Source of the DNA: a virus
Virus record (IMG/VR): IMGVR_UViG_3300034032_000007
Location: 1-46,628 of that record
Length of the DNA stretch: 46,628 bases
Strand: one strand, 5' to 3'
Under the pieces are notes generated by a model, which worked only from the letters and a program-made list of their open reading frames with translations, was not told where the DNA came from and ran no database searches. How positions within the stretch are numbered: position 1 is the first letter of the stretch; the number at the start of each line of letters is the position of its first letter. Of the stretch, positions 5,926 to 43,330 are shown one piece after another. Both the position numbers and the translations under genes were made by a program.

Positions 5926-8835
5926 ATGGCAGAAACGCTTGCCACCGCCCGAATCAATCTGACGCTCGATGCGTCAGACATGATGGTTGCGCTTGAACGT
6001 GCGAAGGAAGCGCAAAAGGGCTTGGGTGCGAATGCACAGGCTGAAGCTGCCAAGATGACGGCGGCTCAGCGGCGAGTTGTCGAAAGCCTTGATCGGCAAA
6101 TCGACAAGCTTGGCCTGACCCGCGAGCAGATGGTGATTTACAACATCGCCACGCGCACCACGGGTGAAACGCAGGCGGCGTTGCTCAGCAAGGTCCAGTC
6201 CACGACTGCGGCGCTCAACAATCAAGCGGGTGGCATCAAGAACGCCACCCGTGAGATTAACCAATACGGGCTCAGCGCAAAGCAGCAGACCGCTGCGATG
6301 CGTCAGGTGCCGGCGCAGATCACCGACATCTTTGTGTCCCTTGCTGGTGGCCAGAACCCGATGATGGTTCTGATCCAGCAGGGTGGCCAGTTGAAGGATG
6401 TGTTTGGTGGCATCGTGCCCGCTGCCCGAGCCCTGGGCGGCGCGTTGCTCGCGTTGGTCAACCCGTACACGGTGGCAGCGGCTGCAATCGCTGCTGTGGG
6501 CGCTGTGGCGATCAGCGAAAGTCAGCGCATGGAAGCGTTTGGCAAAGCGATGCTGACCACTGGCATCACGTCCCGCATGACCAAAGAGGAACTTGCTGCG
6601 CTATCCGCTGAGATTGACAAGCTGGATGGCGTGACCCGTGGACGTGCTGATGAATCCATCCTTGCGCTCGCTGCCAACACCAAGCTGAGCGGCGAGGAAT
6701 TCAAGCGTGCGTCTGCGCTGGTTGCCGAGTGGAGCAGCCTGACGGGCGACAAGGCCGAGGAAGTAGCCAAGCGTTTTGCCGATCTTGGCAAAGAGCCGTA
6801 TCAAGCACTGCTGAAGTTGGCTGAGGGTGGCGCGAATGTCACCACCGAAATGCTCGATGCGGCGTATGCATTGGAGGAATCGGGCCAGCGTGCAGATGCT
6901 GCCAAGATCGCATTCAACGCGATGGCTGATGACATGGAGCGCCGCAACGGTGCTATCCGTGCAAACCTGAGTGGTTGGTCGGCGTTCTGGCGCGACATCA
7001 AGGATGAGGCGGCGGGCGCGTGGGCTGCTATCGCAGGTGCGATGTCCGCTCAGCAGGGGCAGGCCAGCCGTGGTCCGATCAGCAACATCATCGGCCGAGG
7101 GATGGGTGCGTACAATCCTATTTTCAAAGATACGCAGGGTTCCAACAACGCCGTCGAGGCTGCGATGGCTGCGGCGTCCGCGCGTACTGCATCTGCACGC
7201 GCTGCCGGTGAGGCTCGCCGACGTGCTGCCGCAGCCACTGCTAACGACGCACTGAAGGGTTTTGAAAAGAGCGCGGAAACGCCCAAGGATCGGCTTGATA
7301 AGGAAATCACGGCAATAAAGAATTGGGGCAAGGCTCTAGTGGAGGCTGGCGGTGACGCGGCTGCCACTACCGTTCGTGTCAATGCGCTCATCGCTGCCAA
7401 GCAAAAGGCGTTCGATGACAAGCAGCCCAAGGGTCGCAGTGGTGCGGGCGCTGCACGCGCACTCTCCAATGCCGATGCCAGCCGCGAGCTGGACGGTATC
7501 AAGAACGAGGAACAGACCGCACGCAACGCGATCCAGAACAGCACCGCGCTGTTGCAGGCGCAGTACGGCGCACGCTTGGTGTCGGCGAAGGATTACTACG
7601 CTCAGCAGCGGAGCCTGTTGCAGCAGGACACGCGAGCCCAGGTTGAGAGCCTTGAAAAGCAGCTTGCGTACCTGAAGTCGCGCGATGTCGCCGGTAAGGA
7701 CTCCATCAACGTATCCAAGCAGATCGCCGACGTAGAAGCGAAGCTGTCGCAGGTGCGTGCTGATGGTGCCAACAAGCTGGAAATTCTCACGATCACCGAG
7801 GACTCAGCGGCAAAGCAGCGTGCGCGTGCGCTCAGTTCGTACAAGGAAGCGTTGGCCGCTGAGAACGATGCGTTGCAGCAGAGCAGCGATGCCACTGTGC
7901 GCCGCATCATCTTGGGCGAGGAAGCCGCCAGCCAGCAGGAACGCATCGCAGCGATCATGCAGCGTGGTGCCGAACGTCAGCGCGATCTTGCGCGCGAGCT
8001 GGCCGAGGACAATGACAGCGCCAAGTACGATGAAAAGATCGCCGAGCTGCGCCGTTGGATGGATGAGCAAATCCGCATCACCGAGGACGGCTATGCGCGG
8101 ATGAAGGCGGCGCAAGCCGATTGGTTGAACGGCGTTCGCAGCGGCGTGGCTGACTGGATGACGCGCACGAGCGACGTTGCATCCCAGGTCAGCGCGATCA
8201 CTAACAAGTCGCTCGATGGCGCGGCGGAAGCGTTCACGCAGTTCGCCATCACCGGCAAGGCCAACATCAAAGGTCTGCTTATTGACATCGGCACCGAGAT
8301 TACCCGGTTCCTTGCCAAGCAAGCGATCCTGAAGTTTCTTGCCATGTTCGGGCAGTACATGGTGGGTGCGCCTGCTGCGGGCGGTGTAACCACCATTGAT
8401 ACGGGTGCGAGCCGCGCCAATTGGGCTGCAAAGGGCGCTGCATTCGATGGTGCCAATGCGCAGTTCTTTGCCAAGGGCGGTGCTTTCACCAACGGCATCT
8501 ACAACTCGCCCACCATGTTCAAGTTCGCCAATGGCGGCAAGTTCGGTGTGATGGGGGAGGCGGGACCGGAAGCGGTGATGCCGCTGGCCAAGGACTCCGG
8601 GGGCCGGCTTGGCGTGCGCATGGCGGGCGGTGGCGGCGGTGGCCCGCCGCAGGTTGGCGTGGTGGTCAACATCCATAGCGATGGTTCGTCCAACTCCCAG
8701 GCCACGGGCAGCGGCATTGATCCCAACATGGCACGGCAGATGGGTGACAGCATGCGTGCTGTCGTGAGCGAGGAAGTTGACAAGTACATGCGCCCCGGTG
8801 GCAAGCTGTGGGCAGCACGAGGGGGAAGGCAATGA
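5926..8835 (+). CDS. tail tape measure protein
   Basis: 969 aa, Ala/Gln/Arg-rich coiled-coil sequence with a Gly-rich C-terminal region. SD GGAG upstream. Canonical position. Confidence 0.9.
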   Translation: MAETLATARINLTLDASDMMVALERAKEAQKGLGANAQAEAAKMTAAQRRVVESLDRQIDKLGLTREQMVIYNIATRTTGETQAALLSKVQSTTAALNNQAGGIKNATREINQYGLSAKQQTAAMRQVPAQITDIFVSLAGGQNPMMVLIQQGGQLKDVFGGIVPAARALGGALLALVNPYTVAAAAIAAVGAVAISESQRMEAFGKAMLTTGITSRMTKEELAALSAEIDKLDGVTRGRADESILALAANTKLSGEEFKRASALVAEWSSLTGDKAEEVAKRFADLGKEPYQALLKLAEGGANVTTEMLDAAYALEESGQRADAAKIAFNAMADDMERRNGAIRANLSGWSAFWRDIKDEAAGAWAAIAGAMSAQQGQASRGPISNIIGRGMGAYNPIFKDTQGSNNAVEAAMAAASARTASARAAGEARRRAAAATANDALKGFEKSAETPKDRLDKEITAIKNWGKALVEAGGDAAATTVRVNALIAAKQKAFDDKQPKGRSGAGAARALSNADASRELDGIKNEEQTARNAIQNSTALLQAQYGARLVSAKDYYAQQRSLLQQDTRAQVESLEKQLAYLKSRDVAGKDSINVSKQIADVEAKLSQVRADGANKLEILTITEDSAAKQRARALSSYKEALAAENDALQQSSDATVRRIILGEEAASQQERIAAIMQRGAERQRDLARELAEDNDSAKYDEKIAELRRWMDEQIRITEDGYARMKAAQADWLNGVRSGVADWMTRTSDVASQVSAITNKSLDGAAEAFTQFAITGKANIKGLLIDIGTEITRFLAKQAILKFLAMFGQYMVGAPAAGGVTTIDTGASRANWAAKGAAFDGANAQFFAKGGAFTNGIYNSPTMFKFANGGKFGVMGEAGPEAVMPLAKDSGGRLGVRMAGGGGGGPPQVGVVVNIHSDGSSNSQATGSGIDPNMARQMGDSMRAVVSEEVDKYMRPGGKLWAARGGRQ

Positions 8836-9173
8836 CTGACACGTTTACATGGCGGGCGCTCACGGCAACTTCCGGCGACGGCAAGTTCACGACCAACGCT
8901 GCGAAATTCGGTGATAACTACTCGCAGCGTTCGGCCAACGGCATCAACAACTCGCGCGAGACATACCGCGTGGTGGTCGATGGTACGCGCGAGGAAATGG
9001 AAGCCTGCATCGCGTGGATCAAGGCCAAGGCCGGCGTGGTGGCATTCTTCTGGAAACCACCGCTCAGCGTGCGCGGCCTGTATATCTGCACGGGTTGGAC
9101 GCCGGAAATCGAGGGCGTGTTGTGCAGGCTGAACCTTGAGTTTGAACAGGTCGGCACGGAGAGCATGGGCTAA
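8832..9173 (+). CDS. minor tail protein (lambda gpM-like)
   Basis: ATGA overlap with the tape measure gene. FGDNYSQR and LEFEQV match lambda M (FGDGYSQR, EFEQV). Confidence 0.88.
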   Translation: MTDTFTWRALTATSGDGKFTTNAAKFGDNYSQRSANGINNSRETYRVVVDGTREEMEACIAWIKAKAGVVAFFWKPPLSVRGLYICTGWTPEIEGVLCRLNLEFEQVGTESMG

Positions 9174-9841
9174 TGAACGAGCTGATCACTGCTGACGTAC
9201 AGAAGCTTGAACCCGGTGCGCTGGTCACGCTCTTTGAGCTGGATGCGTCCGAGTGGAACGGTGGCGTGCTGCGCTTCCACGGGATGTTCAACGGACCCGT
9301 GTTTTTCAAAGGGCTTGAGTTCTTTCCGTTCCCGGTGGAAGCGGAAGGCTTTGAGCGCACGAGTTCGCAGCAGCCTGTTCCAGTGCTGCGCGTGGGCAAC
9401 GTCAACGGCGCTATCTCCACGCTGTGCCAGATGTACGGCGATCTGCTGGGTGCGAAGTTCACCCGGCGACGCACGTTCGCTCGATACCTGGACGGCCAGC
9501 CTGACGCCAATACGCAAGCCGAGTTCACGCCTGACATTTACTTCGTTGACCGCAAGGCCAACGAGGACAATGTGATGGTGGCATTTGAGCTGGCATCGGT
9601 GCTGGACTTTGAAGGGCAGCAGCTTCCCGGTCGGCAAGTCCTCGCTGACTACTGCCCGTTCACCTATCGCGGCGAGGGCTGCATGTACGCCGGTCCACCT
9701 GTTGCCAAGGCCGACAACACGCCCACGAGTGATCCCGCGTTGGATCGCTGCGGCAAGCGCCTGAGTTCATGCGAGCTGCGCATCTGGCCGGATGACATCA
9801 AGAACTTTGGCGGTGCGCCGGCAGCGGGGCTCGCGCGCTGA
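9173..9841 (+). CDS. minor tail protein (lambda gpL-like)
   Basis: The Cys cluster CPFTYRGEGCMYAG...DRCGKRLSSC and NFGG closely parallel lambda L (CTWTYRGDECGYSG...KCSKCLSGC...NFGG). Confidence 0.9.
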   Translation: MNELITADVQKLEPGALVTLFELDASEWNGGVLRFHGMFNGPVFFKGLEFFPFPVEAEGFERTSSQQPVPVLRVGNVNGAISTLCQMYGDLLGAKFTRRRTFARYLDGQPDANTQAEFTPDIYFVDRKANEDNVMVAFELASVLDFEGQQLPGRQVLADYCPFTYRGEGCMYAGPPVAKADNTPTSDPALDRCGKRLSSCELRIWPDDIKNFGGAPAAGLAR

Positions 9842-10587
9842 TGGACGACAAGGCGCTAGCTGAGTTCAAGGCGCATGCCATCGCTGAGTACCCGCGCGAA
9901 TGCTGCGGCGTGGTGGTCATCTGGAAGGGCAAGTACCGCTACATCCGCTGCCACAACCTTGCGCAAAGCGGCGATCAGTTCACGATGTCCGATGAGGACT
10001 TCACCAACGCAGCGGACCTTGGCGAGATTGTCGCCATCTGCCACTCGCATCCCAACGCACCACCGCAACCGAGTCAGGCCGATCTTGTCGAGTGCGAGAA
10101 CGCCGAGCTGTACGAATGGCACATCATCAATGTGCATGTGAACGATAACGGACAAGTGGAGTGCGGTGCCATGCATAGCTTCAATCCCAGCGGCTACGCT
10201 GCGCCCTTGGTGGGCCGGCGCTTCCACCACGGCACGTTGGACTGCTTTACGCTGATCCGCGACTACTACGCCACGGAACACGGCATCGAGATACCCAACT
10301 TCGCGCGCGAGGATAATTGGTGGAACAACGGGCAGAACCTGTACCGTGACAACTTCCAACGCGCCGGCTTCCGTGAGCTTACGGATGCCGAGGACGTGCA
10401 GGTTGGCGATGTGTTCCTGATGACGATTCGTTCGCCCGTCGAGAACCATGCGGCGGTCTATATCGGCGATGGTATGATCCTGCATCACTTCTGGGGTCGC
10501 CTTTCCAGCCGTGACCCGTACTTGGGGTACTGGCGCGAGAACACCACCGTGGCACTTCGACACAAGGACTTGACCAATGCGCAGTGA
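9841..10587 (+). CDS. tail tip assembly protein (lambda gpK-like, MPN/JAB + NlpC/P60)
   Basis: N-terminal EYPRECCG...HSHPNAPPQPSQADL (JAB/MPN metalloprotease motif). The C-terminal half resembles NlpC/P60. It follows the L-like gene. Confidence 0.85.
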   Translation: MDDKALAEFKAHAIAEYPRECCGVVVIWKGKYRYIRCHNLAQSGDQFTMSDEDFTNAADLGEIVAICHSHPNAPPQPSQADLVECENAELYEWHIINVHVNDNGQVECGAMHSFNPSGYAAPLVGRRFHHGTLDCFTLIRDYYATEHGIEIPNFAREDNWWNNGQNLYRDNFQRAGFRELTDAEDVQVGDVFLMTIRSPVENHAAVYIGDGMILHHFWGRLSSRDPYLGYWRENTTVALRHKDLTNAQ

Positions 10588-11314
10588 GTTGTCTAGCACC
10601 GTAAGCGGTGTGTTGGGCACGGAGCTTGACCCGGAGCTGCGCGCCATCCGCCTGTACGGCAAGCTGGGGGCGATGTTCGGTCGCCTGCACTATCTCGCCG
10701 TGTCCAGTCTGTGCGAGGCGGTGCATGCACTCAGCATGATGCTGCCCGGGTTCAAGGACTACATGACGCGAGCGCACGACAAGGGCGTGGCATTCGCTGT
10801 GTTCTACGGCAAGCGCAACCTGTCGGAACAGGAGCTGTTGTTGGAAGGTGCGGGCGACATCCGCATCGCGCCGGTCATCCGTGGCCGCAAGAACGGCAGC
10901 GTGTTCCAGATCATCTTGGGCGTGGCGCTGATCGCGGTAGCAGCGTTCTTTACCGCAGGCGCGGCGCTCTCAGTGTTCAGCGCGGGTGGCTTGTGGGGCG
11001 CGGTGGCCACGATGGGCCTGTCTATGGTCATCGGCGGCGTGGTCGGCTTGCTGACGCCCGTACCCAGGCTGGAAGTCAACGAGCGACCCGAGAACACGCC
11101 GTCATCCGTGTTTGACGGCCCGGTCAATACGACGGCGCAAGGCCACCCGTTCCCCGTCCTGTACGGCGAGCTTTTCATCGGCAGCGCGGTTCTCTCCGCA
11201 GGCATCCACACAGAGGATGCGGCAATCATTCCCGCCAACACCAACACGACCGGCAGCAACGGTAGTTTCGGTGGCGGCTCCGCACCGTGGCATCTTGAGA
11301 GGTACGCGCAATGA
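10577..11314 (+). CDS. tail assembly protein (lambda gpI-like)
   Basis: N-terminal ubiquitin-like segment (IRLYGKLGAMFG...), a central hydrophobic Gly/Ala-rich stretch, and PFPVLYGELFIGS. It lies between the K-like and J-like genes. Confidence 0.8.
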   Translation: MRSELSSTVSGVLGTELDPELRAIRLYGKLGAMFGRLHYLAVSSLCEAVHALSMMLPGFKDYMTRAHDKGVAFAVFYGKRNLSEQELLLEGAGDIRIAPVIRGRKNGSVFQIILGVALIAVAAFFTAGAALSVFSAGGLWGAVATMGLSMVIGGVVGLLTPVPRLEVNERPENTPSSVFDGPVNTTAQGHPFPVLYGELFIGSAVLSAGIHTEDAAIIPANTNTTGSNGSFGGGSAPWHLERYAQ

Positions 11315-14300
11315 CGATTCGCGGTGCAGGCGGTGGCAAGAGCGGTGGCAAGCCACGTACACCTATCGAGGCTCCCGATAGCCTCCGTAGCGTGTCGTTT
11401 GCGCGCGTGTTGGATTTGCTCAGCGAGGGCGAAGTGTTCGGGCCGGTTGACCCGTTGCATCCGCTGCGCTGCATCTATCTCAATGAAACGCCCATCGAGA
11501 ATAGCGATGGCACCATGAATTTCAAATCCGTGCAGGTCGAGATTCGCACGGGTACTCAGGTGCAGGACTACATCAAGGGCTTTGAAAGCACCGAGAACGA
11601 AAACCCTGTCAACGTCGAAATCACTAGCGATCAGTCGTGGACGCAGAATTTCGTCAACACGGATGTGGACGCAGTGCGCATTCGGCTCAGCACGCCATCG
11701 CTCTACATCATCAATACCGAAAACGGCGATCAGACCGGGCACAGCTTCAGCTATGCCATCGACATGAATGTTGACGGTGGCGGCTTCGTCACCAAGTTTG
11801 AGAGCGCGGTCACCGGCAAGACCACGAGCAAGTATCAGCGGTCGCATCGCGTCGAGCTGCCCAAGTTCACGACCGGCGTTCAGTTGCGTGTGCGTCGCAC
11901 GTCGCCGTCGTCCAACAAGAGCAACATCAGTGACGGCAGCTTCATTGATGCGTTCGCCGAGCTGGTAGACGTGAAGCTGCGCTATCCGATGAGCGCATTG
12001 GTCGGGCTCACGCTTGCGGCCGAGCAGTTCAGTTCGGTGCCCTCGCGTGCGTATCACTGGAAAGGTCGGCTCATCAAGGTGCCGATTAATTACAACCCGG
12101 AAACCCGGCAGTACACCGGGCTGTGGAACGGCACGTTCAAGACGGCGTACAGCAACAATCCGGCGTGGGCGTTCTATGACATGGCGACCAACACGCGCTA
12201 TGGCCTGGGCAAGCGCGTGCCGGCTGCGATGGTGGACAAGTGGACCCTGTACGCCATCGGCCAGTATTGCGATGAGCTGGTGCCCGATGGTTTCGGCAAC
12301 ATGGAGCCCCGCTTTACCTGCAATATGTACCTTCAGACCCGCAATGATGCGACCAAGACCATGCAGGACATGGCGACGGTGTTTCGCGGGATGATGTACG
12401 TGGCGGGCGGCACGCTGGTGCCCTCGTGCGACAAGCCCGCTGACGTGCGCTATCACTTCGCACCGGCCAACGTGATCGACGGCAAGTTCACGTACATGGG
12501 CAGCAGCCAGAAGGCGCGGCATACGCTGGCGCTTGTGTCGTGGAATGACATGAGCAATTTCGGCAGGCAGAAAATCGAGCCGGTGCAGGCAGACGATGCC
12601 GCCATTGCACGGTTCGGCATCCGGCAGATCGAAGTGGCCGCGCTGGGCTGCACGTCGCGTGGGCAGGCGCACCGCCTGGGCAAGTACATCCTGCTGACCG
12701 AGCAGTACGAAACGGATACCGTCACTTTCGATGTTGGCCTTGAGGGCAACATACCGGCACCCGGCGACATCATCGAGATTGCGGACCCGCTGCGTGCAGG
12801 TTCACGCATGGGCGGCCGCGTGTTGGTCAGCGGGCTCAGCACTCTCACGCTTGATGAAGTGCCGGATGTGGTGGGCAACGGCGACGTGTTCAAGGTGATT
12901 CTGCCCAACGGCATGCCCGAAACGCGCACCATCACCGGCTTTGATCTTGTGGCCAACACGGTCACGCTGAATGCGCCGCTGAGCGCCGAGCCAGTGCGGC
13001 ATGCCGTGTGGCTCATCGAAAGCGCGAGCATCAACGCGCAGACCTTCCGCGTGCTGGCCGTGGCCGAGAAACCCGGTATCCAATTCTCCATCACCGCGTT
13101 GCAGTACGTGCCCAGCAAGTTCGGAGCGATCGAGCTGGGATTGAGCATTGACGAGCCACCCATCGGCAGCAACGGTGACATTCCCGACGCCATCACCGGA
13201 CTCAGGCTCACGAGCTTCATGCGCTACGGGCACAACATCGCCTTCAACGTACTGAACGCGGATTGGGAGAACGCCAAGAACGCATCGCGCTACGGTATCC
13301 AGTGGCGCAAGAACAATGGCCCGTGGACGACTCCGCAAAAGGTGACGGACAGCAACTTCGACTTTGAAGGTCCGTTTGCTGGCACGTATGTGTGCCGCGT
13401 GTGGGGCGAGAACTTCATGGGCATCCCTGGCCCGAGCGTGCAGTCAGACCCGTTCGTGGTGACCAACGCCGTGATGCCGGCGCGCGAGCTGAGCATTGGC
13501 GAGGGCGGCGTGGTGGACGTGGACTGCAACTTCGTCCAGTTCGTGCTGGTGCTTACCCAGAACGTCACGCGCTTCAACTTCATCAACGTGGGTCCGCAGG
13601 ACTCCATCATTGTCGATATTCGCAACACGGGGAATTTCACCGTTAATTTTGGCAACAAGGTCATTCCCATCGAGGGCTTCCAGTTCACGATGCCGCAGGG
13701 TGAGGGCGCGTTTGCCGTAATCGGCATGACCACGATGGATGCCGGCGTTTCCTGGCTGCTAAAGACCGCCGCACAGACCGCCAACGACATCTACCCGCCG
13801 CTGATCGCCACCATCAACCCGAGCCCCGCCAGCGGGACGTGGAGCGTGCCCAACAGCGGCCCCGGTGCCCCGAGCGTGCAGGTTGCCGCCAGTGCTGAAG
13901 GTGGCGATGGCACGTACAGCCACGAGTGGTTCCGTGTCGATGGCGAGGGTGGCGACAATTTCCTGATCAGCAACGCGGCAGTCACCAACCCGACCTTCAG
14001 CATCCCGGCCGGCACTACGGCTTACGGCGGCACCCAGACGTGGCGCTATCGCGTTACGGACGGACTGTTGGCGCAAGGCACCGCCGACGTGTCCATCACG
14101 CTCACGCGCGCCGTGGCAACGCCGTTCGGTATCAGTACCGCCAGCAGCCATAGCGGTTCGTGCTTCGCCAACGCCGGTCAGAACGTGGGTTGCTCGCCGA
14201 CCACTGAAGTGCAGATCGCGGTGGTGGGTGCCACCTATCCGATTACGTGGAGCATCACGCGCACGGATGGCTTGGCGCAGAACGTCGGGCAAGGCGTCAA

Positions 14301-14460
14301 CCCGCAGACGGCTGGCAACCTGTTCGCAAGTTTCTCGCTGTCGTCGGGCACGTCCAATGCCGAGCGCCAAGCCACGTACCGCGTGGACGCAACCGACGCA
14401 CTTGGCACGCCGGCATCCTGCACGTTCACGGTCAATCTCGCGCGGAGCAATGAGCTGTGA
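11311..14460 (+). CDS. central tail fibre / host specificity protein (lambda gpJ-like)
   Basis: 1049 aa. The N-terminus GGGKSGGKPRTPIEAPDSLRSVSFARVLDLLSEGEV parallels lambda J. It has an FN3-like segment (YGIQWRKNNGPW) and two Ig-like C-terminal modules. Confidence 0.9.
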   Translation: MTIRGAGGGKSGGKPRTPIEAPDSLRSVSFARVLDLLSEGEVFGPVDPLHPLRCIYLNETPIENSDGTMNFKSVQVEIRTGTQVQDYIKGFESTENENPVNVEITSDQSWTQNFVNTDVDAVRIRLSTPSLYIINTENGDQTGHSFSYAIDMNVDGGGFVTKFESAVTGKTTSKYQRSHRVELPKFTTGVQLRVRRTSPSSNKSNISDGSFIDAFAELVDVKLRYPMSALVGLTLAAEQFSSVPSRAYHWKGRLIKVPINYNPETRQYTGLWNGTFKTAYSNNPAWAFYDMATNTRYGLGKRVPAAMVDKWTLYAIGQYCDELVPDGFGNMEPRFTCNMYLQTRNDATKTMQDMATVFRGMMYVAGGTLVPSCDKPADVRYHFAPANVIDGKFTYMGSSQKARHTLALVSWNDMSNFGRQKIEPVQADDAAIARFGIRQIEVAALGCTSRGQAHRLGKYILLTEQYETDTVTFDVGLEGNIPAPGDIIEIADPLRAGSRMGGRVLVSGLSTLTLDEVPDVVGNGDVFKVILPNGMPETRTITGFDLVANTVTLNAPLSAEPVRHAVWLIESASINAQTFRVLAVAEKPGIQFSITALQYVPSKFGAIELGLSIDEPPIGSNGDIPDAITGLRLTSFMRYGHNIAFNVLNADWENAKNASRYGIQWRKNNGPWTTPQKVTDSNFDFEGPFAGTYVCRVWGENFMGIPGPSVQSDPFVVTNAVMPARELSIGEGGVVDVDCNFVQFVLVLTQNVTRFNFINVGPQDSIIVDIRNTGNFTVNFGNKVIPIEGFQFTMPQGEGAFAVIGMTTMDAGVSWLLKTAAQTANDIYPPLIATINPSPASGTWSVPNSGPGAPSVQVAASAEGGDGTYSHEWFRVDGEGGDNFLISNAAVTNPTFSIPAGTTAYGGTQTWRYRVTDGLLAQGTADVSITLTRAVATPFGISTASSHSGSCFANAGQNVGCSPTTEVQIAVVGATYPITWSITRTDGLAQNVGQGVNPQTAGNLFASFSLSSGTSNAERQATYRVDATDALGTPASCTFTVNLARSNEL

Positions 14461-16739
14461 TCGGCTCCAACCACCGAATGTTCTTTACGCTGCTGGGCGG
14501 TGCTACCGCCATGCTGGCACTACCACCTACTGATGAGGAAGATACCGTGCGCAGCTTGGTTGACTTGGGATTGATGGAAAAGGTTTGGGAGTATCAGAAC
14601 CCCGGTGGCGAGCCAATCTATTCGTCGCCTATCGGCCCGGTCACGGTGTATGCCGGCAGCGGCGGCATCGCCAACCAAGCGCCGGCAGTGATGTTCACTT
14701 CCTGGGATTGGTACGTGTATGCGCTCGACGTACACACGGGTGCGCTAATGCAGCGCCAGCCGTTCAATCTCAACATCTACGGCCGCGTGCAGGTTGGTGA
14801 TGTCAACAACGACGGCTACAACGAAATCTTTGCGCCGTGCCATAGTGGTTTCATCCGCTCGATGAATTCCGACTTGACGTACCGTTGGGAGTTCTACAGC
14901 GTGTACGACCGTGAGGCAAACGGAGCGATCACGGGTGCGGGTGTCGATTCGTTCACCGACACGACTCGCAACTGGCCGACCAACACGTTCATGCGCCGCA
15001 CAACCGCGCCGTTTACGGTCAATGCTTACGTGCGCTTCCTGAGTGGGGCTAACGCATTCGTTCCGGGCACGGCCGATCCCAACACGGGCATTGCCCCCAC
15101 TGACCGGCATGTGGCGGCATGCAGCGGCAACAGCATCACTGTCTCGGAGCCCTGGGCAGTGCAGCCCGGTGCAGGCGATTCCTACATCGTTCTGCCGCGC
15201 TATACGTCGGACAAGATTTTCATGCACGCCGGTCAGTTGGTAAAGCTGTCATCTACGGATTGGCGTTTGTTCTGCACCGGCTTTGACAACATGGTGTATT
15301 GCCTTAACGCCAACACGGGTGCGCTCATCTGGCAGTACGCCACTCTTGAAAACATCGAGCCCTACCCGCTGGTGCTTTACAACGATGGCACCTTGCGCGT
15401 GTACGCGGTAAGCATCGACGGCAAGACCCGGTGCTTTGACGGCAACGACGGCACGCTGTTGTGGGAAGCGGACACGGGACAGTGCGACGCCTTCATCAAC
15501 GCCGTGGGTGAAGCGGGTGCGCTCGATACGGACGTTTACGTGTCGTCCCGCAGGGGTCGCGTGTATCGAGTGAACGCCAATTTCGGCACGCGCGAGGCGC
15601 AGTCAACGGAAACCCGAGCGTGGGATTACGGCGACATTGATTCGTCCGCGCTGCCATTCCAGTTGACGGGCACCACCAACGAAGCGGGCCGGCGCGTGGT
15701 GGTCGGTGGCGATTCGGGGTCGGTGTATTGCTTCGACAACAATCTCAACACGATGTGGGCTCAGCCTGCCGCGCCTACCGCGATCAATTCATCGCCGGTC
15801 ATCCACAACGTGACGGGCAAGAACAATGAGCTGGCGGTGCTTCTGGCCGACATGCGCGGCACCGTGCATTGCTATGACGTGGCCACTGGCAAGTCCATCG
15901 GCAAGCTGTACCACAAGGGTGGGATCGAGGGCTACCCGTACTACGGCGACATCGACGGTGATGGAAAGATCGAGCTGATCACCACGACAACGGACGGCAT
16001 CGTGACGTGCTGGCGCTTCCTGAAGGGCGCCGAGTACATCCACACGTCGAAGCCGGGCAATGATCGCTGGAAGGGGCACATTGCGGTGCCGGTCAGCAAC
16101 AATGATCCGCTCGCGGCATTCGTGGTGGCCGATCACGATTTCACGGGCTCACTGACGGCAGACGAAACAGGCAACACCTGGGCTATCGAAGGCACGCCCA
16201 CGCTTACTGCCAACGGCATGGAAGTATCGGGCGATGAAGGTGTAACGCTGAGCGTCCCAGGTCTTGAGTTGCCTATGGGTTCGTCTACCTTTGAAGTCGT
16301 GGTGCGCATTGATAGCTCCCACGCCGAGGACAGCCGACGCACCATCGGTCAGTTCGGTGAGCTGGGGTCCGGTCTGTCGTGGGTCATGCAGCGCCTGTTT
16401 GGCACGCATGTGTTTGAAATGAGTTCTGGCAGCGGTGGAATCAACGCGGGCGGCAACCGAACCATCCCCACGGGGTACACGCATCTTTGCATTCAGACCG
16501 AATCGGACGGCGGCGTTGGACAACTGGCGTGGCTGTACGTCAACGGCGTGCGCAGCATCAACAGCTTCAACCTGCAACCGTGGCACCGTGAAGTCAGTTT
16601 CCTCCGCTTGGGCTGGGCCACCTACAGCGACAACCCCGACAACAGCAGCAACATTGTGATCCGCCGTTTCCGTTACACGCGCGGCGCATTGCGGTATGCC
16701 ATCGGCGGCTTCACTGTCCCAGCCGACATGACCTATTGA
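14457..16739 (+). CDS. distal tail protein with PQQ/BamB-like beta-propeller, FG-GAP-like Ca-binding motifs and C-terminal LamG/concanavalin-like domain (putative receptor-binding protein)
   Basis: GTGA overlap with the J-like gene. About 7 blade repeats (VYALDVHTGAL, VYCLNANTGALIW, TRCFDGNDGTLLW, VYCFDNNLNTMW, VHCYDVATGKSI, VTCW). DxDxDG motifs (GDVNNDGYNEI, GDIDGDGKIEL). LamG-like C-terminal ~200 aa. The start is uncertain (GTG 14457, ATG 14478 or ATG 14511). Confidence 0.7.
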   Translation: MIGSNHRMFFTLLGGATAMLALPPTDEEDTVRSLVDLGLMEKVWEYQNPGGEPIYSSPIGPVTVYAGSGGIANQAPAVMFTSWDWYVYALDVHTGALMQRQPFNLNIYGRVQVGDVNNDGYNEIFAPCHSGFIRSMNSDLTYRWEFYSVYDREANGAITGAGVDSFTDTTRNWPTNTFMRRTTAPFTVNAYVRFLSGANAFVPGTADPNTGIAPTDRHVAACSGNSITVSEPWAVQPGAGDSYIVLPRYTSDKIFMHAGQLVKLSSTDWRLFCTGFDNMVYCLNANTGALIWQYATLENIEPYPLVLYNDGTLRVYAVSIDGKTRCFDGNDGTLLWEADTGQCDAFINAVGEAGALDTDVYVSSRRGRVYRVNANFGTREAQSTETRAWDYGDIDSSALPFQLTGTTNEAGRRVVVGGDSGSVYCFDNNLNTMWAQPAAPTAINSSPVIHNVTGKNNELAVLLADMRGTVHCYDVATGKSIGKLYHKGGIEGYPYYGDIDGDGKIELITTTTDGIVTCWRFLKGAEYIHTSKPGNDRWKGHIAVPVSNNDPLAAFVVADHDFTGSLTADETGNTWAIEGTPTLTANGMEVSGDEGVTLSVPGLELPMGSSTFEVVVRIDSSHAEDSRRTIGQFGELGSGLSWVMQRLFGTHVFEMSSGSGGINAGGNRTIPTGYTHLCIQTESDGGVGQLAWLYVNGVRSINSFNLQPWHREVSFLRLGWATYSDNPDNSSNIVIRRFRYTRGALRYAIGGFTVPADMTY

Positions 16740-16841
16740 CATCCACGCCCGCGTGGTTATAGTCGAACGCAGGTAAGCACGATATGTTCAACACCTAGCG
16801 CGACACACGCATAGTTGAACCGCTGCACGCAACCTCCATAC

Positions 16842-16871
16842 AACCCTGCCCTGACCGGCAGGGTTTTTCTT
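16842..16871 (+). terminator. rho-independent terminator ending the structural operon
   Basis: AACCCTGCC-ctgacc-GGCAGGGTT, with the T-run continuing as TTTTTCTTT. Confidence 0.8.
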
Positions 16872-16873
16872 TG

Positions 16874-16908
16874 GACAAAAAGAAACCCCGGATGGTAAGT
16901 CCGGGGTT
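16874..16908 (-). terminator. rho-independent terminator for the minus-strand HTH operon
   Basis: On the minus strand: AACCCCGGA-cttacca-TCCGGGGTT followed by TCTTTTTGT. It lies 59 nt downstream of the stop at 16967. Confidence 0.8.
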
Positions 16909-16966
16909 CCCACTTCCTAACGGGGGCGCGGCTGTCCAGGACCGCAAGCCGACATTAAAGCCGCTC

Positions 16967-17302
16967 TCAGTCCTTGTCAACACCGTACAACTGCTTGAGG
17001 CGGATGAGGTCACGCGGCGTGAGCTTCCAGCCGTCCTCGCGCGCTCCGTACAGGCGCAGTTCGGTGGCGTCGAAGCTGTCGAGCTTCATGGCTTCGATGA
17101 ATAGCTCAACCCGTTCTGGCACTATCGCGGCATTGTGGCGGTTGCGCATGAGCGTGCCGGCGTACAGCGGGGTCACACCCAGGATGCGCGAAAGATCGTT
17201 GTGGATGTCGAGCCCATGAAAGCGCAAATGCTCACGCATGATCGAGCGCACAGTACGCGGCCCGGTCGGCTCACTCATCGGTCGGCCTTGTCTGCGCCGC
17301 AT
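16967..17302 (-). CDS. XRE-type helix-turn-helix DNA-binding protein (regulator)
   Basis: 111 aa. The segment LSRILGVTPLYAGTLMRNRHNAAIVPERVELFIEAMKLD resembles a Cro/CI-type HTH. Its start overlaps the upstream stop (TGATG). An alternative start lies at Met9. Confidence 0.6.
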   Translation of the reverse strand: MRRRQGRPMSEPTGPRTVRSIMREHLRFHGLDIHNDLSRILGVTPLYAGTLMRNRHNAAIVPERVELFIEAMKLDSFDATELRLYGAREDGWKLTPRDLIRLKQLYGVDKD

Positions 17303-17526: not shown

Positions 17527-18066
17527 ATGCCCTACGCGACAATTACGATTGCCATGCTTACCCTCGTGGTGTATCTGATCGGCAACCCGCGCGCCATGTG
17601 GCTGTCGTCCGACTGGCACTATGGGTTTGAATTCATCACCTATGCGCTGTGCCACGGTGGCAAATTGCATCTGCTGGTGAACCTGCTGGCGCTCATATCG
17701 TTCGGGCCGGCACTGGAAAGACTGTGGGGCCACCGCGTGTTCCTGTTCTGCTATCTGCTGGCCGCTGCGTTCGGCGGCCTGTTGCAGATCAAGCTGCTAC
17801 CTGGGGTGCCGGTGATCGGCGCGAGCGCGGCGCTGCTGGCCCTTTTTGCCGCCTACGCGCTGCGCAAGCCGGATGCCAAGATCGTTAGCCTGTTTGTCGT
17901 GCCGCTGCCCGCATGGGCCGTGCTGGCGCTCTACGTCGGCGTGTCGATGGCAGCGATGTACTTCAACTGGATGCCCGAGGTCAGCCACATATCGCACCTT
18001 GGCGGCATCACCGTAGGCGTGGTGTTCCGCCTCATCGACGGCTATACGACAAAACCCCAAGCGTGA
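17527..18066 (+). CDS. rhomboid-family intramembrane serine protease
   Basis: 179 aa, about 6 TM segments. Motifs in canonical order: H-x4-H-x3-N (CHGGKLHLLVN), FGPALE, catalytic GxSxx (IGASAALLALF), and catalytic His in HLGGITVG. Confidence 0.85.
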   Translation: MPYATITIAMLTLVVYLIGNPRAMWLSSDWHYGFEFITYALCHGGKLHLLVNLLALISFGPALERLWGHRVFLFCYLLAAAFGGLLQIKLLPGVPVIGASAALLALFAAYALRKPDAKIVSLFVVPLPAWAVLALYVGVSMAAMYFNWMPEVSHISHLGGITVGVVFRLIDGYTTKPQA

Positions 18067-41447: not shown

Positions 41448-42632
41448 ATGAGCCTTCAGACGCGACTTGCCGCGCTGATTACCCTAATCGGCGCGGACAT
41501 CAAGGCCCGTGCGCTCAAGGCCACGACGTTCGCGGGCTATGGCATCACGGGCGCGCAGACGCTAGACAGTCAACTGACGGTCGAGCCCGCCACGGGGCAA
41601 GGCTTGTTGATCGCTGCCGGCAACGGCGAGTTCAACTATTCGGGTCTGATTCTCTACAACAAGGCGTACACCCGGTATTGGTCTTTCATGCACCGCTCCG
41701 GTGGTGCCAGCGATGAAGGATCGTTCAAGGCTGAGTATTGGAACGGCACCACCTACAACACGTTCTTTGAGATAACGAAGCTGGGTGTAATGAAAGTGGG
41801 TCCGTCGCTTTCGACGGTCATCCACACCGGCAATCTCGGAACGGGTTTGTCATGGGACGGTGCGGCACTCAACGCCGTTGCATCGCCGACGCCCGCTGCC
41901 ACCCTGACGACTGCGCAAACGCTCGCGTGGAACGGCGACTATCAGGCTACCCAGGCCGCGAACCACACGCTGCCCACTGCGGCATCGGGTGACGTTGGCA
42001 AAACGATCTTTGTCACGTCCTACGCGGATGGCGTGGTGTTGCTTCGCGGCACCAACACCATCAACGACATCGGAGCCGGCAACGATCTGGGCTTGGACAA
42101 CGGCGATTCGGTCACGCTCATGGTGCGGTCGGCCGGCGTGCTGGAAGTCGTCAACCAAGGCACGCGCGGTGCCCCAGGTGGGCAGGCCAAGACGGCGATT
42201 GTGTTGGCATCCAACTTTTCGTCAATCAGTAGTGTACCCGCTGCCGTAACGGGCTGGACCTTTTATGCTGTTGCGGGGAAGAAATACCGCATCCAAGTTC
42301 TCGGTGCGTATCAAAGTGCCGCGACAACCACGGGTGGCGTCATCAAGTTGCTTGCCACTAACGGGGCCGCAGGTACGTTTGCCGGTCAAGCGTGGGGTGC
42401 CATTACGACTGCTGCGGCTGCAACGGAGTTGGGTATTGCCATAACCGCTATCGGGTCAACGCTGACTACGACCGGCGTAAGCGCGATCAACAGCCCGCAC
42501 TACATCGGCATGGATGTTGGCTTCGCTTGCACCACGTCCGGTGACATATCTGTTGGCTGGGCCACGGAAGTTGCCGCAAGCGCCTCGCAACTCAACGCGG
42601 GCTCCATGCTTATCATCGAGGAATTGCCGTAA
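41448..42632 (+). CDS. fibre-like protein sharing the N-terminal module of 40968..41444
   Basis: N-terminus MSLQTRLAALITLIGADIKA versus MSLQTRISALITAIGVDIKT in the preceding gene. 394 aa, Thr/Gly/Ala-rich and beta-rich in appearance. Confidence 0.55.
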   Translation: MSLQTRLAALITLIGADIKARALKATTFAGYGITGAQTLDSQLTVEPATGQGLLIAAGNGEFNYSGLILYNKAYTRYWSFMHRSGGASDEGSFKAEYWNGTTYNTFFEITKLGVMKVGPSLSTVIHTGNLGTGLSWDGAALNAVASPTPAATLTTAQTLAWNGDYQATQAANHTLPTAASGDVGKTIFVTSYADGVVLLRGTNTINDIGAGNDLGLDNGDSVTLMVRSAGVLEVVNQGTRGAPGGQAKTAIVLASNFSSISSVPAAVTGWTFYAVAGKKYRIQVLGAYQSAATTTGGVIKLLATNGAAGTFAGQAWGAITTAAAATELGIAITAIGSTLTTTGVSAINSPHYIGMDVGFACTTSGDISVGWATEVAASASQLNAGSMLIIEELP

Positions 42633-43330
42633 TGATCGTGCCTTTGGGCTCAACTATTGCGGGTGTACGTCGCCGCATCCACATTCTTACCGCGTCTAAT
42701 GCCGCGCTTGCGATCCCAACGTGGGCTCAAGGTGGCAAGGGGCTGATGCTGGTCACCGGCACTGGCGGTGGCGGTGGTGGCGGTAACGATGGCGCGTTCT
42801 CAGGGTCGGACGGTGGCAGTGGCGCGATGGCGTTTAACCATCCCATCCCGATTCCATCTGGCATCACGACTGCCAACATCGCTATTGGTGCAGGCGGCAC
42901 TGCGGCAACAAGCGGAAATTCCGGTGGTACAGGTGGCGCGTGTTCAATCACGCTAGGTTCTGTTGTTCCGCTCTTGTTGGGCGGCGGGAGTGGCGGTCCC
43001 TCTAGCAACTCACCGGGTACAGGCGGCACACCGCAAGTGTACGGCGCGAATTTCCTGGTCAACGCCGGCAGCGACACTACGGGCGTTACGACCTTGAACA
43101 TGGCCGCGGCCTTCCAAACGCTTGCCCGAGGCATACACGGCTACGCGAGCGCCAATTTGCAGCCGTATGGCATGAACGCCCGGATGGCAACGCCCTTTGG
43201 CGGCGCAAGCAATGGGGCGACTCCCGGCTCAGGATATGGTTACGGTGGAAAGGGGACTAGCAGTGGCGGCGGCGCGGCCTACGCGGGCGGTCCAGGCATG
43301 CTGATCATTGAATTCGTGGAGGGCTACTGA
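42632..43330 (+). CDS. glycine-rich fibre-associated protein
   Basis: TGTGGGGGGGNDGAFSGSDGGSG...IGAGGTAATSGNSGGTGG...GGPGMLIIEF resembles glycine-rich domains seen in phage fibre modules. The start overlaps the upstream stop. Confidence 0.55.
   Translation: MIVPLGSTIAGVRRRIHILTASNAALAIPTWAQGGKGLMLVTGTGGGGGGGNDGAFSGSDGGSGAMAFNHPIPIPSGITTANIAIGAGGTAATSGNSGGTGGACSITLGSVVPLLLGGGSGGPSSNSPGTGGTPQVYGANFLVNAGSDTTGVTTLNMAAAFQTLARGIHGYASANLQPYGMNARMATPFGGASNGATPGSGYGYGGKGTSSGGGAAYAGGPGMLIIEFVEGY

What the first reader, a model, noticed from the sequence alone, without database searches (positions are those of the whole stretch)
14457..16739. Distal tail protein built from a BamB/PQQ-like beta-propeller, FG-GAP-like calcium motifs and a LamG-like lectin domain
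The gene is translationally coupled to the J-like gene (GTGA) and is the last gene of the tail operon, where side fibres or receptor-binding proteins sit. It lacks fibre or collagen-like repeats. It carries about seven blades with the x-V-Y-C-x-D-x-x-T-G-x-x-x-W signature, two DxDxDG loops and a ~200-aa concanavalin/LamG-like C-terminus. I do not recognise a propeller-plus-lectin architecture as a standard siphophage adhesin. It could define host range through glycan binding.
Basis: partly seen in the sequence, partly recalled or inferred. Interest (0 to 1): 0.65.

Follow-up and report, generated by a model that had tools for sequence, protein, structure and literature searches.

The report
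Propeller-shaped phage tail-tip adhesin
The last gene of this phage's tail operon encodes a rare, unnamed tail-tip protein built on an eight-bladed propeller, probably used to recognise the host; propeller adhesins are already known in phages, and the claimed lectin domain could not be confirmed.

Summary
The ORF 14457-16739 (760 aa) is real. It overlaps the J stop codon (GTGA) and closes the tail operon. Residues 37-540 form a confidently modelled eight-bladed (not about seven) PQQ/BamB-type beta-propeller. It carries two DxDxDG loops and a 105-aa insertion. The "LamG-like" C-terminus (547-760) is not supported: no profile hit, an unusable model, and only one homologue among 1.84 billion representatives.

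The propeller family is rare, about 25 clusters plus about 20 loci. It has no PHROG and no match in GenBank phages. It lies inside tail modules of at least ten unrelated phage contigs. Its N-terminus is variously a short peptide, a tail-fibre anchor domain, a collagen-like stalk or a large tail protein. Its C-terminus is usually absent, or swapped (a discoidin domain in a sister phage). In five genomes the gene sits directly after a conserved 350-aa "J C-terminal" module, which suggests a two-part tip complex.

Best reading: a virion tail-tip host-recognition protein, a new variant of the known propeller receptor-binding proteins (phi11 Gp45, PRD1 P2, phiKZ gp131). Binding versus enzymatic action is unresolved.

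A side finding: a fast-evolving, propeller-only copy sits in a conserved non-phage locus of freshwater Burkholderiales genomes.

The parts
14457..16739 (+). Propeller tail-tip protein gene, 760 aa, GTG start overlapping the J stop (GTGA). The public gene call uses M8 (753 aa).
   Evidence: The 4-nt overlap with J is also seen in L001 and L003. Residues upstream of M8 align with homologues.
14444..14447 (+). GGAG Shine-Dalgarno-like motif 9 nt upstream of the GTG start, inside the end of J
   Evidence: read from the sequence
14457..14564 (+). N-terminal peptide, residues 1-36. It is disordered in the model. Its motif LLGG...(D/E)EEDxV(R/Q)SLVDxGL is shared only with homologues that follow a J C-terminal module. 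Proposed docking peptide (inferred).
   Evidence: pLDDT <50 for residues 1-30; alignment A1; entropy 2.59 bits versus about 1.4 in the propeller
14565..16076 (+). Eight-bladed PQQ/BamB-type beta-propeller, residues 37-540. Blade signatures at residues 85, 131, 278, 322, 367, 421, 468 and 513.
   Evidence: PQQ_2 55.9 bits versus cut-off 27.6; pLDDT >90; Foldseek Cake8 TMt 0.86 and BamB TMt about 0.7; profile versus PDB 3HXJ 5.5e-21; motif scan
14799..14816 (+). FG-GAP-type calcium-loop motif DVNNDG (residues 115-120)
   Evidence: FG-GAP 21.7 bits versus cut-off 22.1 at residues 111-124; D115 present in >=90% of the family and G120 invariant
14901..15218 (+). Insertion subdomain of about 105 aa (residues 149-254) between blades 2 and 3. 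It is beta-rich, conserved in the family, and has no known relative.
   Evidence: strands and pLDDT; alignment; no PDB hit
15948..15965 (+). FG-GAP-type calcium-loop motif DIDGDG (residues 498-503)
   Evidence: D498, D500, G501, D502, G503 and E506 are each present in >=90% of the family; ITFG2 FG-GAP match at 487-514
16095..16736 (+). C-terminal domain, residues 547-760. It is predicted all-beta and is an orphan by sequence. It is absent from nearly all homologues. Its one relative is the middle domain of the tail-fibre-like protein P0039.
   Evidence: P0039 context and N-terminus
11311..14460 (+). J-like central tail fibre / tip attachment gene, 1049 aa
   Evidence: phrog_31 7.8e-273; FNIII-A_GpJ and Phage-tail_3
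13408..14457 (+). J C-terminal module (J residues 700-1049). It recurs immediately upstream of the propeller gene in four other genome types, once as a separate 500-aa gene. Proposed partner of the propeller protein.
   Evidence: tblastn: L031 65% identity, L001 33%, L032 35% (separate ORF 8349-9851), L003 36%. Also.
16842..16865 (+). Terminator-like hairpin followed by a T run, closing the tail operon
16881..16911 (-). Convergent terminator-like hairpin for the minus-strand gene 16967-17302

Best explanation
The gene encodes a virion protein of the tail tip that takes part in host recognition.

Shown:
- It is co-transcribed with J and its start overlaps the J stop, so it is probably translationally coupled.
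- Its core is an eight-bladed PQQ-type propeller with FG-GAP-type loops.
- The same propeller is a mobile module found only in tail modules of unrelated sipho- and podo-like phages. There it is joined to whatever anchor the local tail uses.

Inferred:
- In this phage, the short N-terminal peptide (residues 1-36) docks the protein onto the 350-aa C-terminal module of J. The two travel together as a cassette.
- One face of the propeller, stabilised by calcium in the two DxDxDG loops, binds a cell-surface ligand, most likely a polysaccharide. This mediates initial, probably reversible, adsorption.
- The extra 210-aa all-beta C-terminal domain is a swappable accessory binding module that tunes specificity. 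The sister phage carries a discoidin domain plus another beta domain at the same place. Most relatives carry nothing there, so the propeller alone must suffice for the basic function.
For: Position and coupling:
- GTGA overlap with J, GGAG 9 nt upstream, terminators after the gene.
- The same 4-nt overlap with J occurs in L001 and L003.

Propeller:
-.

Family context, always in tail modules:
- After J or J-like genes in L001, L003, L012 and L031, and two genes after one in L032.
- Between the tape measure and the tip genes in L005 and L033.
- In podovirus-like modules in L006, L007 and L008.
- Beside a collagen-like fibre and a Dit gene in L020.
- As the C-terminal domain of a 1383-aa tail protein in L022.

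Anchors:
- P0012 N-terminus matches tail-fibre phrog_2712 at 1.2e-25, and P0015 matches phrog_9729 at 1.2e-11.
- Collagen G-x-y runs lie upstream of the propeller in L019, L020, L021, L023 and P0015.

Cassette:
- The J C-terminal module lies just upstream of the propeller in five genome types.

C-terminal swapping:
-.
- The only relative of the C-terminal domain, P0039, follows a J-like gene and has a tail-fibre N-terminus (phrog_19976, 1.9e-21).

Precedents:
- Phi11 Gp45, PRD1 P2 and phiKZ gp131C (PMC4901313).
- Beta-propeller lectin plus collagen fibres in eCIS (PMC12923769).
Against: - There is no direct evidence of virion incorporation or of binding.
- The window protein matches no PHROG and no GenBank phage at E<=1e-3.
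- It has no obvious trimerisation stalk, unlike most fibres.
- Propeller loops are rather uniformly conserved across phages that presumably have different hosts. That fits a conserved ligand or an active site better than a hypervariable receptor-binding surface.
- Propeller-only homologues sit in non-phage chromosomal loci of Burkholderiales genomes, so the fold is not restricted to virions.
- The docking of the N-terminal peptide on J rests on co-occurrence only.
Confidence: 0.6

Rival explanations
1. A tail-associated enzyme. The propeller would be a catalytic domain, such as a polysaccharide lyase, hydrolase or esterase acting on capsule, EPS or O-antigen. The active site would sit in the central funnel, and the C-terminal domain would be a carbohydrate-binding module that feeds it.
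For: - Propellers are the second most common polysaccharide-degrading fold in phages (PMC11326577).
- Loop motifs rich in Asp, Glu, Arg and His are highly conserved across the family: E298, E301, D321, D344, R365, D395, D419, N444 and E491.
- Conservation is even along the propeller.
- Tetrathionate hydrolase and quinoprotein dehydrogenases are among the structural neighbours.
- There is a weak Beta-prop_CGLA (carrageenase) match of 27.6 bits against a cut-off of 26.8.
Against: - There is no Pfam hit to any glycoside hydrolase or polysaccharide lyase family.
- The CGLA match covers only the 35-residue calcium-loop motif.
- The top 50 PDB neighbours contain no glycoside hydrolase or polysaccharide lyase.
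- The closest sequence relatives in the PDB are non-enzymatic PQQ-like repeat proteins: 3HXJ, a protein deposited as 'cell surface protein', and BamB.
- Many of the conserved motifs are the generic 'SSP' and 'DG' repeat signatures of PQQ-type blades.
Confidence: 0.22
2. Not a virion protein. It would be a moron or accessory gene parked after J, like lambda lom, and perhaps captured from the host. It would act in the infected cell or lysogen, for example in exclusion, receptor masking or surface modification.
For: - The slot downstream of J is a classic moron site in lambdoid phages (established knowledge).
- Stand-alone, propeller-only homologues exist in a conserved metabolic neighbourhood of five Burkholderiales genomes, with no phage genes nearby.
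- The gene has no PHROG.
Against: - The gene has no promoter or terminator of its own ahead of it. Its start overlaps the J stop codon.
- It has no signal peptide or membrane segment.
- Relatives are fused to tail-fibre anchors, collagen stalks or a large tail protein.
- Relatives sit in the middle of tail modules, not only at their ends.
Confidence: 0.08
3. A structural tail-tip component with no receptor role. For example, a cap or decoration that stabilises the J C-terminal module or controls tip opening, while receptor binding is done by J itself.
For: - The linkage with the J C-terminal module is tight, and the two diverge to a similar degree (65% versus 61% identity to the closest relative).
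- The propeller is conserved rather than hypervariable.
Against: - In many relatives the propeller is the distal end of a fibre-like protein with interchangeable anchors. That is the pattern of receptor-binding modules, not of core tip parts.
- C-terminal domains of binding type (F5/8 type C) are appended to it in L001.
Confidence: 0.1

Closest known systems
Staphylococcus phage phi11 receptor-binding protein Gp45 (PMC4901313)
   Same: It is a siphophage tail-tip receptor-binding protein. Its central domain is a beta-propeller and is followed by a C-terminal all-beta domain ('tower'). The ligand is thought to sit in a cavity of the propeller. This is the closest known architecture.
   Different: Phi11 has a five-bladed propeller of a different superfamily. 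It also has a long triple-helical N-terminal stem that makes a homotrimer, and it sits on a Gram-positive baseplate. The protein here has eight PQQ-type blades with FG-GAP-type loops, only a 36-residue N-terminus, and a lambda-like J tip. No sequence similarity was found.
PRD1 P2 and phiKZ gp131C propeller domains (as summarised in PMC4901313)
   Same: These are propeller domains at the host-contacting periphery of a virion. They are proposed to act as a receptor-binding or cell-degrading module.
   Different: They have five (distorted) and seven blades, and the virus types are unrelated. Neither appeared among the top 50 Foldseek matches.
Phage beta-propeller depolymerases, e.g. K1F endosialidase (PMC11326577; PMC12632334)
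   Same: These are tail-spike or fibre proteins in which a propeller faces the cell surface, often with lectin-like companion domains.
   Different: Those propellers belong to glycoside hydrolase or lyase families with known catalytic residues. No such family matches here.
PQQ-like beta-propeller superfamily: BamB, archaeal PQQ-repeat proteins (3HXJ), quinoprotein dehydrogenases
   Same: The fold and blade signature are the same, and there are eight blades. PQQ_2 scores above its cut-off. The family profile matches 3HXJ at 5.5e-21 and BamB at about 5e-6. TM-scores are about 0.7 to 0.86.
   Different: It is not BamB: the BamB model scores 43.5 bits against a cut-off of 285, and there is no lipoprotein signal. 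It is not a quinoprotein: the PQQ model PF01011 does not hit. It carries FG-GAP-type DxDxDG loops, a 105-aa insertion and a phage tail context.
PilY1/PilC type IV pilus tip adhesin (PMC6322766; the calcium site is from my own knowledge)
   Same: A propeller carrying PQQ-type repeat motifs sits at the tip of a filament and is used for adhesion. It also has a calcium-binding loop. This is an analogue in how it works.
   Different: PilY1 has a seven-bladed modified propeller and is a bacterial pilus protein. No sequence relationship was detected here.
eCIS tail fibres with beta-propeller lectins on collagen-like shafts (PMC12923769)
   Same: Some relatives of this protein (L019, L020, L021, L023, P0015) also place the propeller after a collagen-like stalk.
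   Different: The fold family of the eCIS propellers was not compared here. The window protein has no collagen stalk.

Membership tests
PQQ-like beta-propeller (Pfam PQQ_2, PF13360) | Score above the family's gathering threshold | tested here: met
   55.9 bits against a cut-off of 27.6, E 6.4e-15, residues 267-481. All 24 close homologues carry PF13360.
PQQ-like beta-propeller (Pfam PQQ_2, PF13360) | Eight four-stranded blades closing into a ring | tested here: met
   Eight blade signatures. About 33 strands outside the insertion, with pLDDT >90. The best neighbours are eight-bladed: Cake8 TMt 0.86 and BamB.
BamB (outer membrane protein assembly factor) | Score above the NCBIfam equivalog cut-off; lipoprotein signal peptide | tested here: not met
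   TIGR03300 scores 43.5 bits against a cut-off of 285.2, and NF008351 scores 31.5 against 423. The N-terminus has no signal or lipobox.
PQQ-dependent dehydrogenase | Match to the quinoprotein propeller model (PF01011) and to the cofactor and active-site residues | tested here: not met
   PF01011 is not among the hits at E<=1. Only short single-blade matches to dehydrogenases were found. Cofactor residues were not examined.
FG-GAP / integrin-alpha-type repeats (PF01839, PF13517) | Score above the gathering threshold | tested here: inconclusive
   FG-GAP scores 21.7 against 22.1, and FG-GAP_3 scores 17.1 against 26.9 in the window protein. The homologue P0007 passes FG-GAP_3 at 30.0 against 26.9.
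FG-GAP / integrin-alpha-type repeats (PF01839, PF13517) | DxDxDG calcium-binding loop in the hairpin between the first two strands of a blade | tested here: met
   DVNNDG at 115-120 and DIDGDG at 498-503. Both lie between the first two strands of their blades in the model. They are conserved in at least 90% of the family. Calcium binding itself was not tested.
LamG / concanavalin A-like lectin domain (PF13385, PF02210, PF00054) | Profile match to a LamG or ConA-like family | tested here: not met
   No Pfam family at E<=10 for residues 531-760. No NCBIfam hit. hhalign against the LamG regions of P0007 and P0028 gives E 0.27 and 0.39.
LamG / concanavalin A-like lectin domain (PF13385, PF02210, PF00054) | Two-sheet jelly-roll beta-sandwich fold | tested here: inconclusive
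   The model is all-beta, but pLDDT is 34. Its Foldseek matches are noise, with best E 0.16.
Phage tail fibre / receptor-binding protein | Encoded in the tail module next to the tip or J gene | tested here: met
   for the window. for more than ten related loci.
Phage tail fibre / receptor-binding protein | Modular build: interchangeable N-terminal anchor and distal binding module | tested here: met
   Tail-fibre PHROG anchors, collagen stalks, fusion to a 1383-aa tail protein, and C-terminal domain swapping.
Phage tail fibre / receptor-binding protein | Match to an annotated tail-fibre family | tested here: not met
   No PHROG for the window protein at E<=0.01. No tblastn match in 50,697 phage records.
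Phage tail fibre / receptor-binding protein | Presence in the virion and binding to the host surface | not testable with these tools
   This needs virion proteomics and adsorption assays.
Dit (distal tail protein), as the finding's title could be read | Dit-type ring protein encoded directly after the tape measure | tested here: not met
   The slot after the tape measure is occupied by the gpM-like gene 8808-9173 (phrog_14). The propeller protein matches no Dit family.
Beta-propeller glycoside hydrolase or polysaccharide lyase depolymerases | Profile or fold match to a glycoside hydrolase or polysaccharide lyase propeller family with catalytic residues | tested here: not met
   No such Pfam hit. 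The Beta-prop_CGLA match (27.6 against 26.8) covers only the 35-residue loop motif. None appears in the top 50 PDB neighbours.

The most novel reading that the evidence does not exclude
The propeller is not just another adhesin module. It would be a gene family shared between phage tail tips and a single, conserved, rapidly diverging chromosomal gene of the likely host lineage, freshwater Burkholderiales.

The chromosomal copy is 59% identical between two genomes whose flanking genes are 91-94% identical. It lacks any anchor or signal peptide.

That copy could be a domesticated receptor-binding module used by the cell against these phages, for example as a decoy that titrates the J C-terminal module or blocks tail assembly. 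Alternatively, it could be the cellular source from which phages captured their tip protein.
Probability: 0.12. Interest if true: 0.75.

Novelty: new variant of a known kind. Interest (0 to 1): 0.5.

Why it matters
Receptor-binding proteins decide which bacteria a phage can infect. They are also the parts that people re-engineer for phage therapy and diagnostics.

This family adds an eight-bladed, PQQ-type, calcium-loop propeller to the short list of propeller adhesins. It behaves as a portable module across sipho- and podo-like tails. It also comes with a recognisable partner, the J C-terminal module, that could serve as a defined docking system.

The family is invisible to current phage annotation resources: it has no PHROG and no GenBank phage homologue. 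Such genes are therefore left as 'hypothetical' or mislabelled 'BamB' in metagenomes. Naming the family would improve host-range prediction for freshwater betaproteobacterial phages.

Tried and rejected
- **LamG assignment of the C-terminus.** I tried Pfam at E<=10, NCBIfam, PDB sequence and profile searches, a word-indexed search of 5.8 billion proteins (twice, once with a two-sequence profile), an exhaustive search of 1.84 billion representatives, hhalign against two LamG regions, and AlphaFold plus Foldseek. Only one homologue was found and the fold remains unassigned.
- **Insertion subdomain.** A profile of residues 146-258 against the PDB gave nothing significant.
- **BamB identity.** Rejected: it scores far below the equivalog cut-off.
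- **Carrageenase-like enzyme.** Rejected: the Beta-prop_CGLA match is confined to the calcium-loop motif.
- **Relatives among cultured phages.** None by megablast or tblastn.
- **Small RNA between the stop codon and the terminator.** No Rfam match near any gathering score.
- **Mapping conservation onto the propeller faces.** This was not possible because model coordinates are not exposed. Only a linear entropy profile was made, and it was uninformative.
- **L005.** Its propeller gene lies between a tape-measure fragment and L. I treat this with caution because that assembly shows many split genes.


Full report
**1. Observation**

The window is a siphovirus-type phage contig with about 60% G+C.
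- On the plus strand it encodes a protease, a major capsid protein, a major tail protein, a tape measure, and gpM-, L-, K-, I- and J-like genes.
- A replication block follows, partly on the minus strand: DNA polymerase, a Gp2.5-like SSB, an exonuclease, a helicase, a methyltransferase and a primase. The large terminase lies near the right end.
- No cultured phage is close. The large terminase is at most 55% identical and the DNA polymerase at most 50%.

The ORF 14457-16739 is the longest in its region.
- Its GTG start overlaps the TGA of J, reading GTGA, and GGAG lies 9 nt upstream.
- The public gene call starts at Met8. However, the residues before Met8 align with homologues whose ATG also overlaps J by 4 nt.
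- A convergent pair of terminator-like hairpins follows the gene, and the next gene is on the other strand.
- The gene has no collagen-like runs and no tandem repeats.

**2. The propeller**

- Pfam PQQ_2 is above its cut-off (55.9 against 27.6 bits). Beta-prop_ACSF4 scores 83.7 bits, below its cut-off of 133. Beta-prop_CGLA just passes and FG-GAP just fails, and both of those cover only the loop at residues 111-147.
- With a 25-sequence alignment, AlphaFold models residues 31-546 at pLDDT mostly above 90.
- Outside a 105-residue insertion there are about 33 strands. A motif scan finds eight blade signatures, not seven.
- The best PDB neighbours are eight-bladed: designed Cake8 (TM 0.86), BamB (about 0.7), tetrathionate hydrolase and quinoprotein dehydrogenases.
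- The family profile matches the archaeal PQQ-repeat protein 3HXJ at 5.5e-21 and BamB at about 5e-6.
- It is not BamB: it scores 43.5 bits against a cut-off of 285.
- The two DxDxDG loops (115-120 and 498-503) are present and conserved. Relatives keep up to about six such loops at equivalent hairpins. The family is therefore a PQQ-type propeller with integrin-like calcium loops.

**3. The C-terminus**

- Residues 547-760 have no Pfam or NCBIfam match, even at E<=10 or E<=1.
- They have no relative in the PDB.
- They have no relative in the word-indexed 5.8-billion-protein set.
- They have exactly one relative among 1.84 billion representatives: P0039, E 1.2e-9, 37% identity. The two align over the whole domain of about 210 residues.
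- The structure models are unusable, with pLDDT below 50 in the full-length model and 34 for the domain alone, and the fold search returns noise.
- hhalign against two LamG regions is not significant.
- The LamG label is therefore unproven. All that can be said is that the domain is predicted all-beta.
- P0039 is informative in another way. It is encoded directly after a J-like gene in a GTA-like tail module, and it begins with a tail-fibre N-terminal motif (phrog_19976, 1.9e-21).

**4. The family and its contexts**

About 24 protein clusters share the propeller at 28-61% identity. Most end right after the last blade. Scans of viral and genome collections added 20 loci. No PHROG and no GenBank phage record matches.

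In phage contigs the gene is always inside a tail module:
- It lies after J or J-like genes in L001, L003, L012 and L031, and two genes after one in L032.
- It lies between the tape measure and the tip genes in L005 and L033.
- It lies in podovirus-like modules with SU10-type adaptors or a P22 gp10-like protein.
- It lies beside a collagen-like fibre and a Dit gene in L020.
- It forms the C-terminal domain of a 1383-aa protein two genes after the tape measure in L022.

The N-termini differ with the tail type:
- tail-fibre anchor domains (phrog_2712, 1.2e-25; phrog_9729, 1.2e-11);
- collagen G-x-y stalks;
- or a short peptide, as in the window.

Only the window protein and P0007 of the sister phage L001 have long C-terminal extensions. 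L016 has a shorter one of about 100 aa. P0007 carries an F5/8 type C domain plus a further beta domain. This interchangeable-anchor, interchangeable-tip pattern is the hallmark of receptor-binding proteins.

**5. A two-part cassette**

The last 350 residues of the window's J recur immediately upstream of the propeller gene in four other genome types:
- L031, 65% identity;
- L001, 33%;
- L003, 36%, at the end of an otherwise unrelated 1240-aa tip protein;
- L032, 35%, where the module is a separate 500-aa gene.

The propeller proteins of the window, L031, L001 and L003 share the N-terminal motif LLGG...(D/E)EEDxV(R/Q)SLVDxGL. P0006 of L032 has a different N-terminal extension and keeps only the VQSLVDLG end of the motif. 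I infer that the peptide docks onto the J C-terminal module. This inference rests on co-occurrence only.

**6. Mechanism and rivals**

The best-supported reading is a tail-tip host-recognition protein. Its propeller binds a surface ligand, and its C-terminal domain is an accessory specificity module.

The main rival is an enzymatic propeller.
- For it: conservation is even along the propeller, and there are many invariant acidic and basic loop residues.
- Against it: no glycoside hydrolase or lyase family or fold appears, and much of the conservation is the generic blade signature.

A moron reading is weakened by the overlap of the start with the J stop, by the fusions seen in relatives, and by the lack of any signal peptide.

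**7. Comparison with the known**

Propeller receptor-binding proteins are established. Examples are phi11 Gp45 (five blades followed by an all-beta tower), PRD1 P2 and phiKZ gp131C (PMC4901313). Propeller depolymerases are also known (PMC11326577), as are eCIS fibres that combine a propeller lectin with a collagen shaft (PMC12923769).

Literature searches found nothing on eight-bladed, PQQ-type or FG-GAP-type propellers in phage tails. Among viral predicted structures, the nearest tailed-virus match is a PQQ-repeat protein of a haloarchaeal tailed virus, at TM 0.53.

This is therefore a new variant of a known kind.

**8. Verdict**

- The interpretation as a host-range protein is well supported by context but remains untested.
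- Interest is moderate at 0.5. It is raised a little by the J-module cassette and by the fast-evolving chromosomal copies in freshwater Burkholderiales.

Noticed in passing
L026:8016-9488, L027:7986-9458, L028:7737-9482 (the 490-aa product, as in the other four loci, would start at about 8010), L029:1050-2522, L030:7986-9458: Five freshwater Burkholderiales/Betaproteobacteria genomes assembled from metagenomes carry a 490-aa, propeller-only homologue, 40-44% identical to the window protein. It has no anchor, no signal peptide and no C-terminal domain. It sits in a conserved non-phage locus: TRAP solute-binding protein, acyl-CoA dehydrogenase, propeller, periplasmic binding protein, ABC transporter. 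Between L026 and L030 the upstream flanks are 91-94% identical, but the propeller is only 59% identical. The gene therefore evolves much faster than its neighbours.
   Followed up: partly
window 17527-18066 (+): A 179-aa rhomboid-family intramembrane protease gene lies just after the tail operon (Pfam Rhomboid 90.2 bits against cut-off 22.6, E 1.8e-25; phrog_16931 of unknown function). It lies among mostly minus-strand genes. This is an unusual gene for a phage.
   Followed up: no
window 13408-14457 (+) and L032:8349-9851: The C-terminal 350 residues of J behave as a separable module. In L032 it is a gene of its own, and in L003 it ends an otherwise unrelated tip protein. In every case it lies just upstream of the propeller gene. 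Its fold is unknown; the only hint is a weak PKD-like match.
   Followed up: partly
window 16736-16763 (+): A near-consensus sigma-70-like promoter (TTGACA, 16 nt, TATAGT; 11 of 12 matches) straddles the stop codon of the propeller gene. It points at the terminator 80 nt downstream, with no ORF in between. This could be chance or a very short transcript. No Rfam family comes near its gathering score.
   Followed up: partly
window 41448-43330 (+): Two genes lie upstream of the terminase. One is a 394-aa protein with no PHROG or Pfam match. The other is a 232-aa protein with a glycine-rich domain (Gly_rich_2, 27 bits against cut-off 24.3). These might be further virion or fibre-like proteins.
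   Followed up: no
L019:3433-5442, L020:5377-7446, L023:5398-7455: The propeller relatives in these viral contigs begin with what looks like a cleavable Sec signal peptide (for example MNKLLRSALLTIGTLAFALAAYA). A domain of about 120 aa, a collagen-like G-x-y stalk and then the propeller follow. A signal peptide is odd for a phage fibre. In L020 the gene sits between tail genes, next to another collagen-like fibre.
   Followed up: partly
L005:10001-11668 and L033:7179-8744: In two loci the propeller gene lies between the tape measure and the L/DUF1833 tip genes, roughly the gpM/Dit slot, rather than after J. L005 is a noisy assembly with split genes, in a bacterial contig.
   Followed up: no
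window ends, 1-294 and 45556-46628: No portal gene was seen among the complete ORFs. The large terminase ends at 45555 and the protease starts at 295. The portal is probably split across the contig ends, as expected for a circularly permuted or circular assembly. No tRNA genes were found.
   Followed up: no
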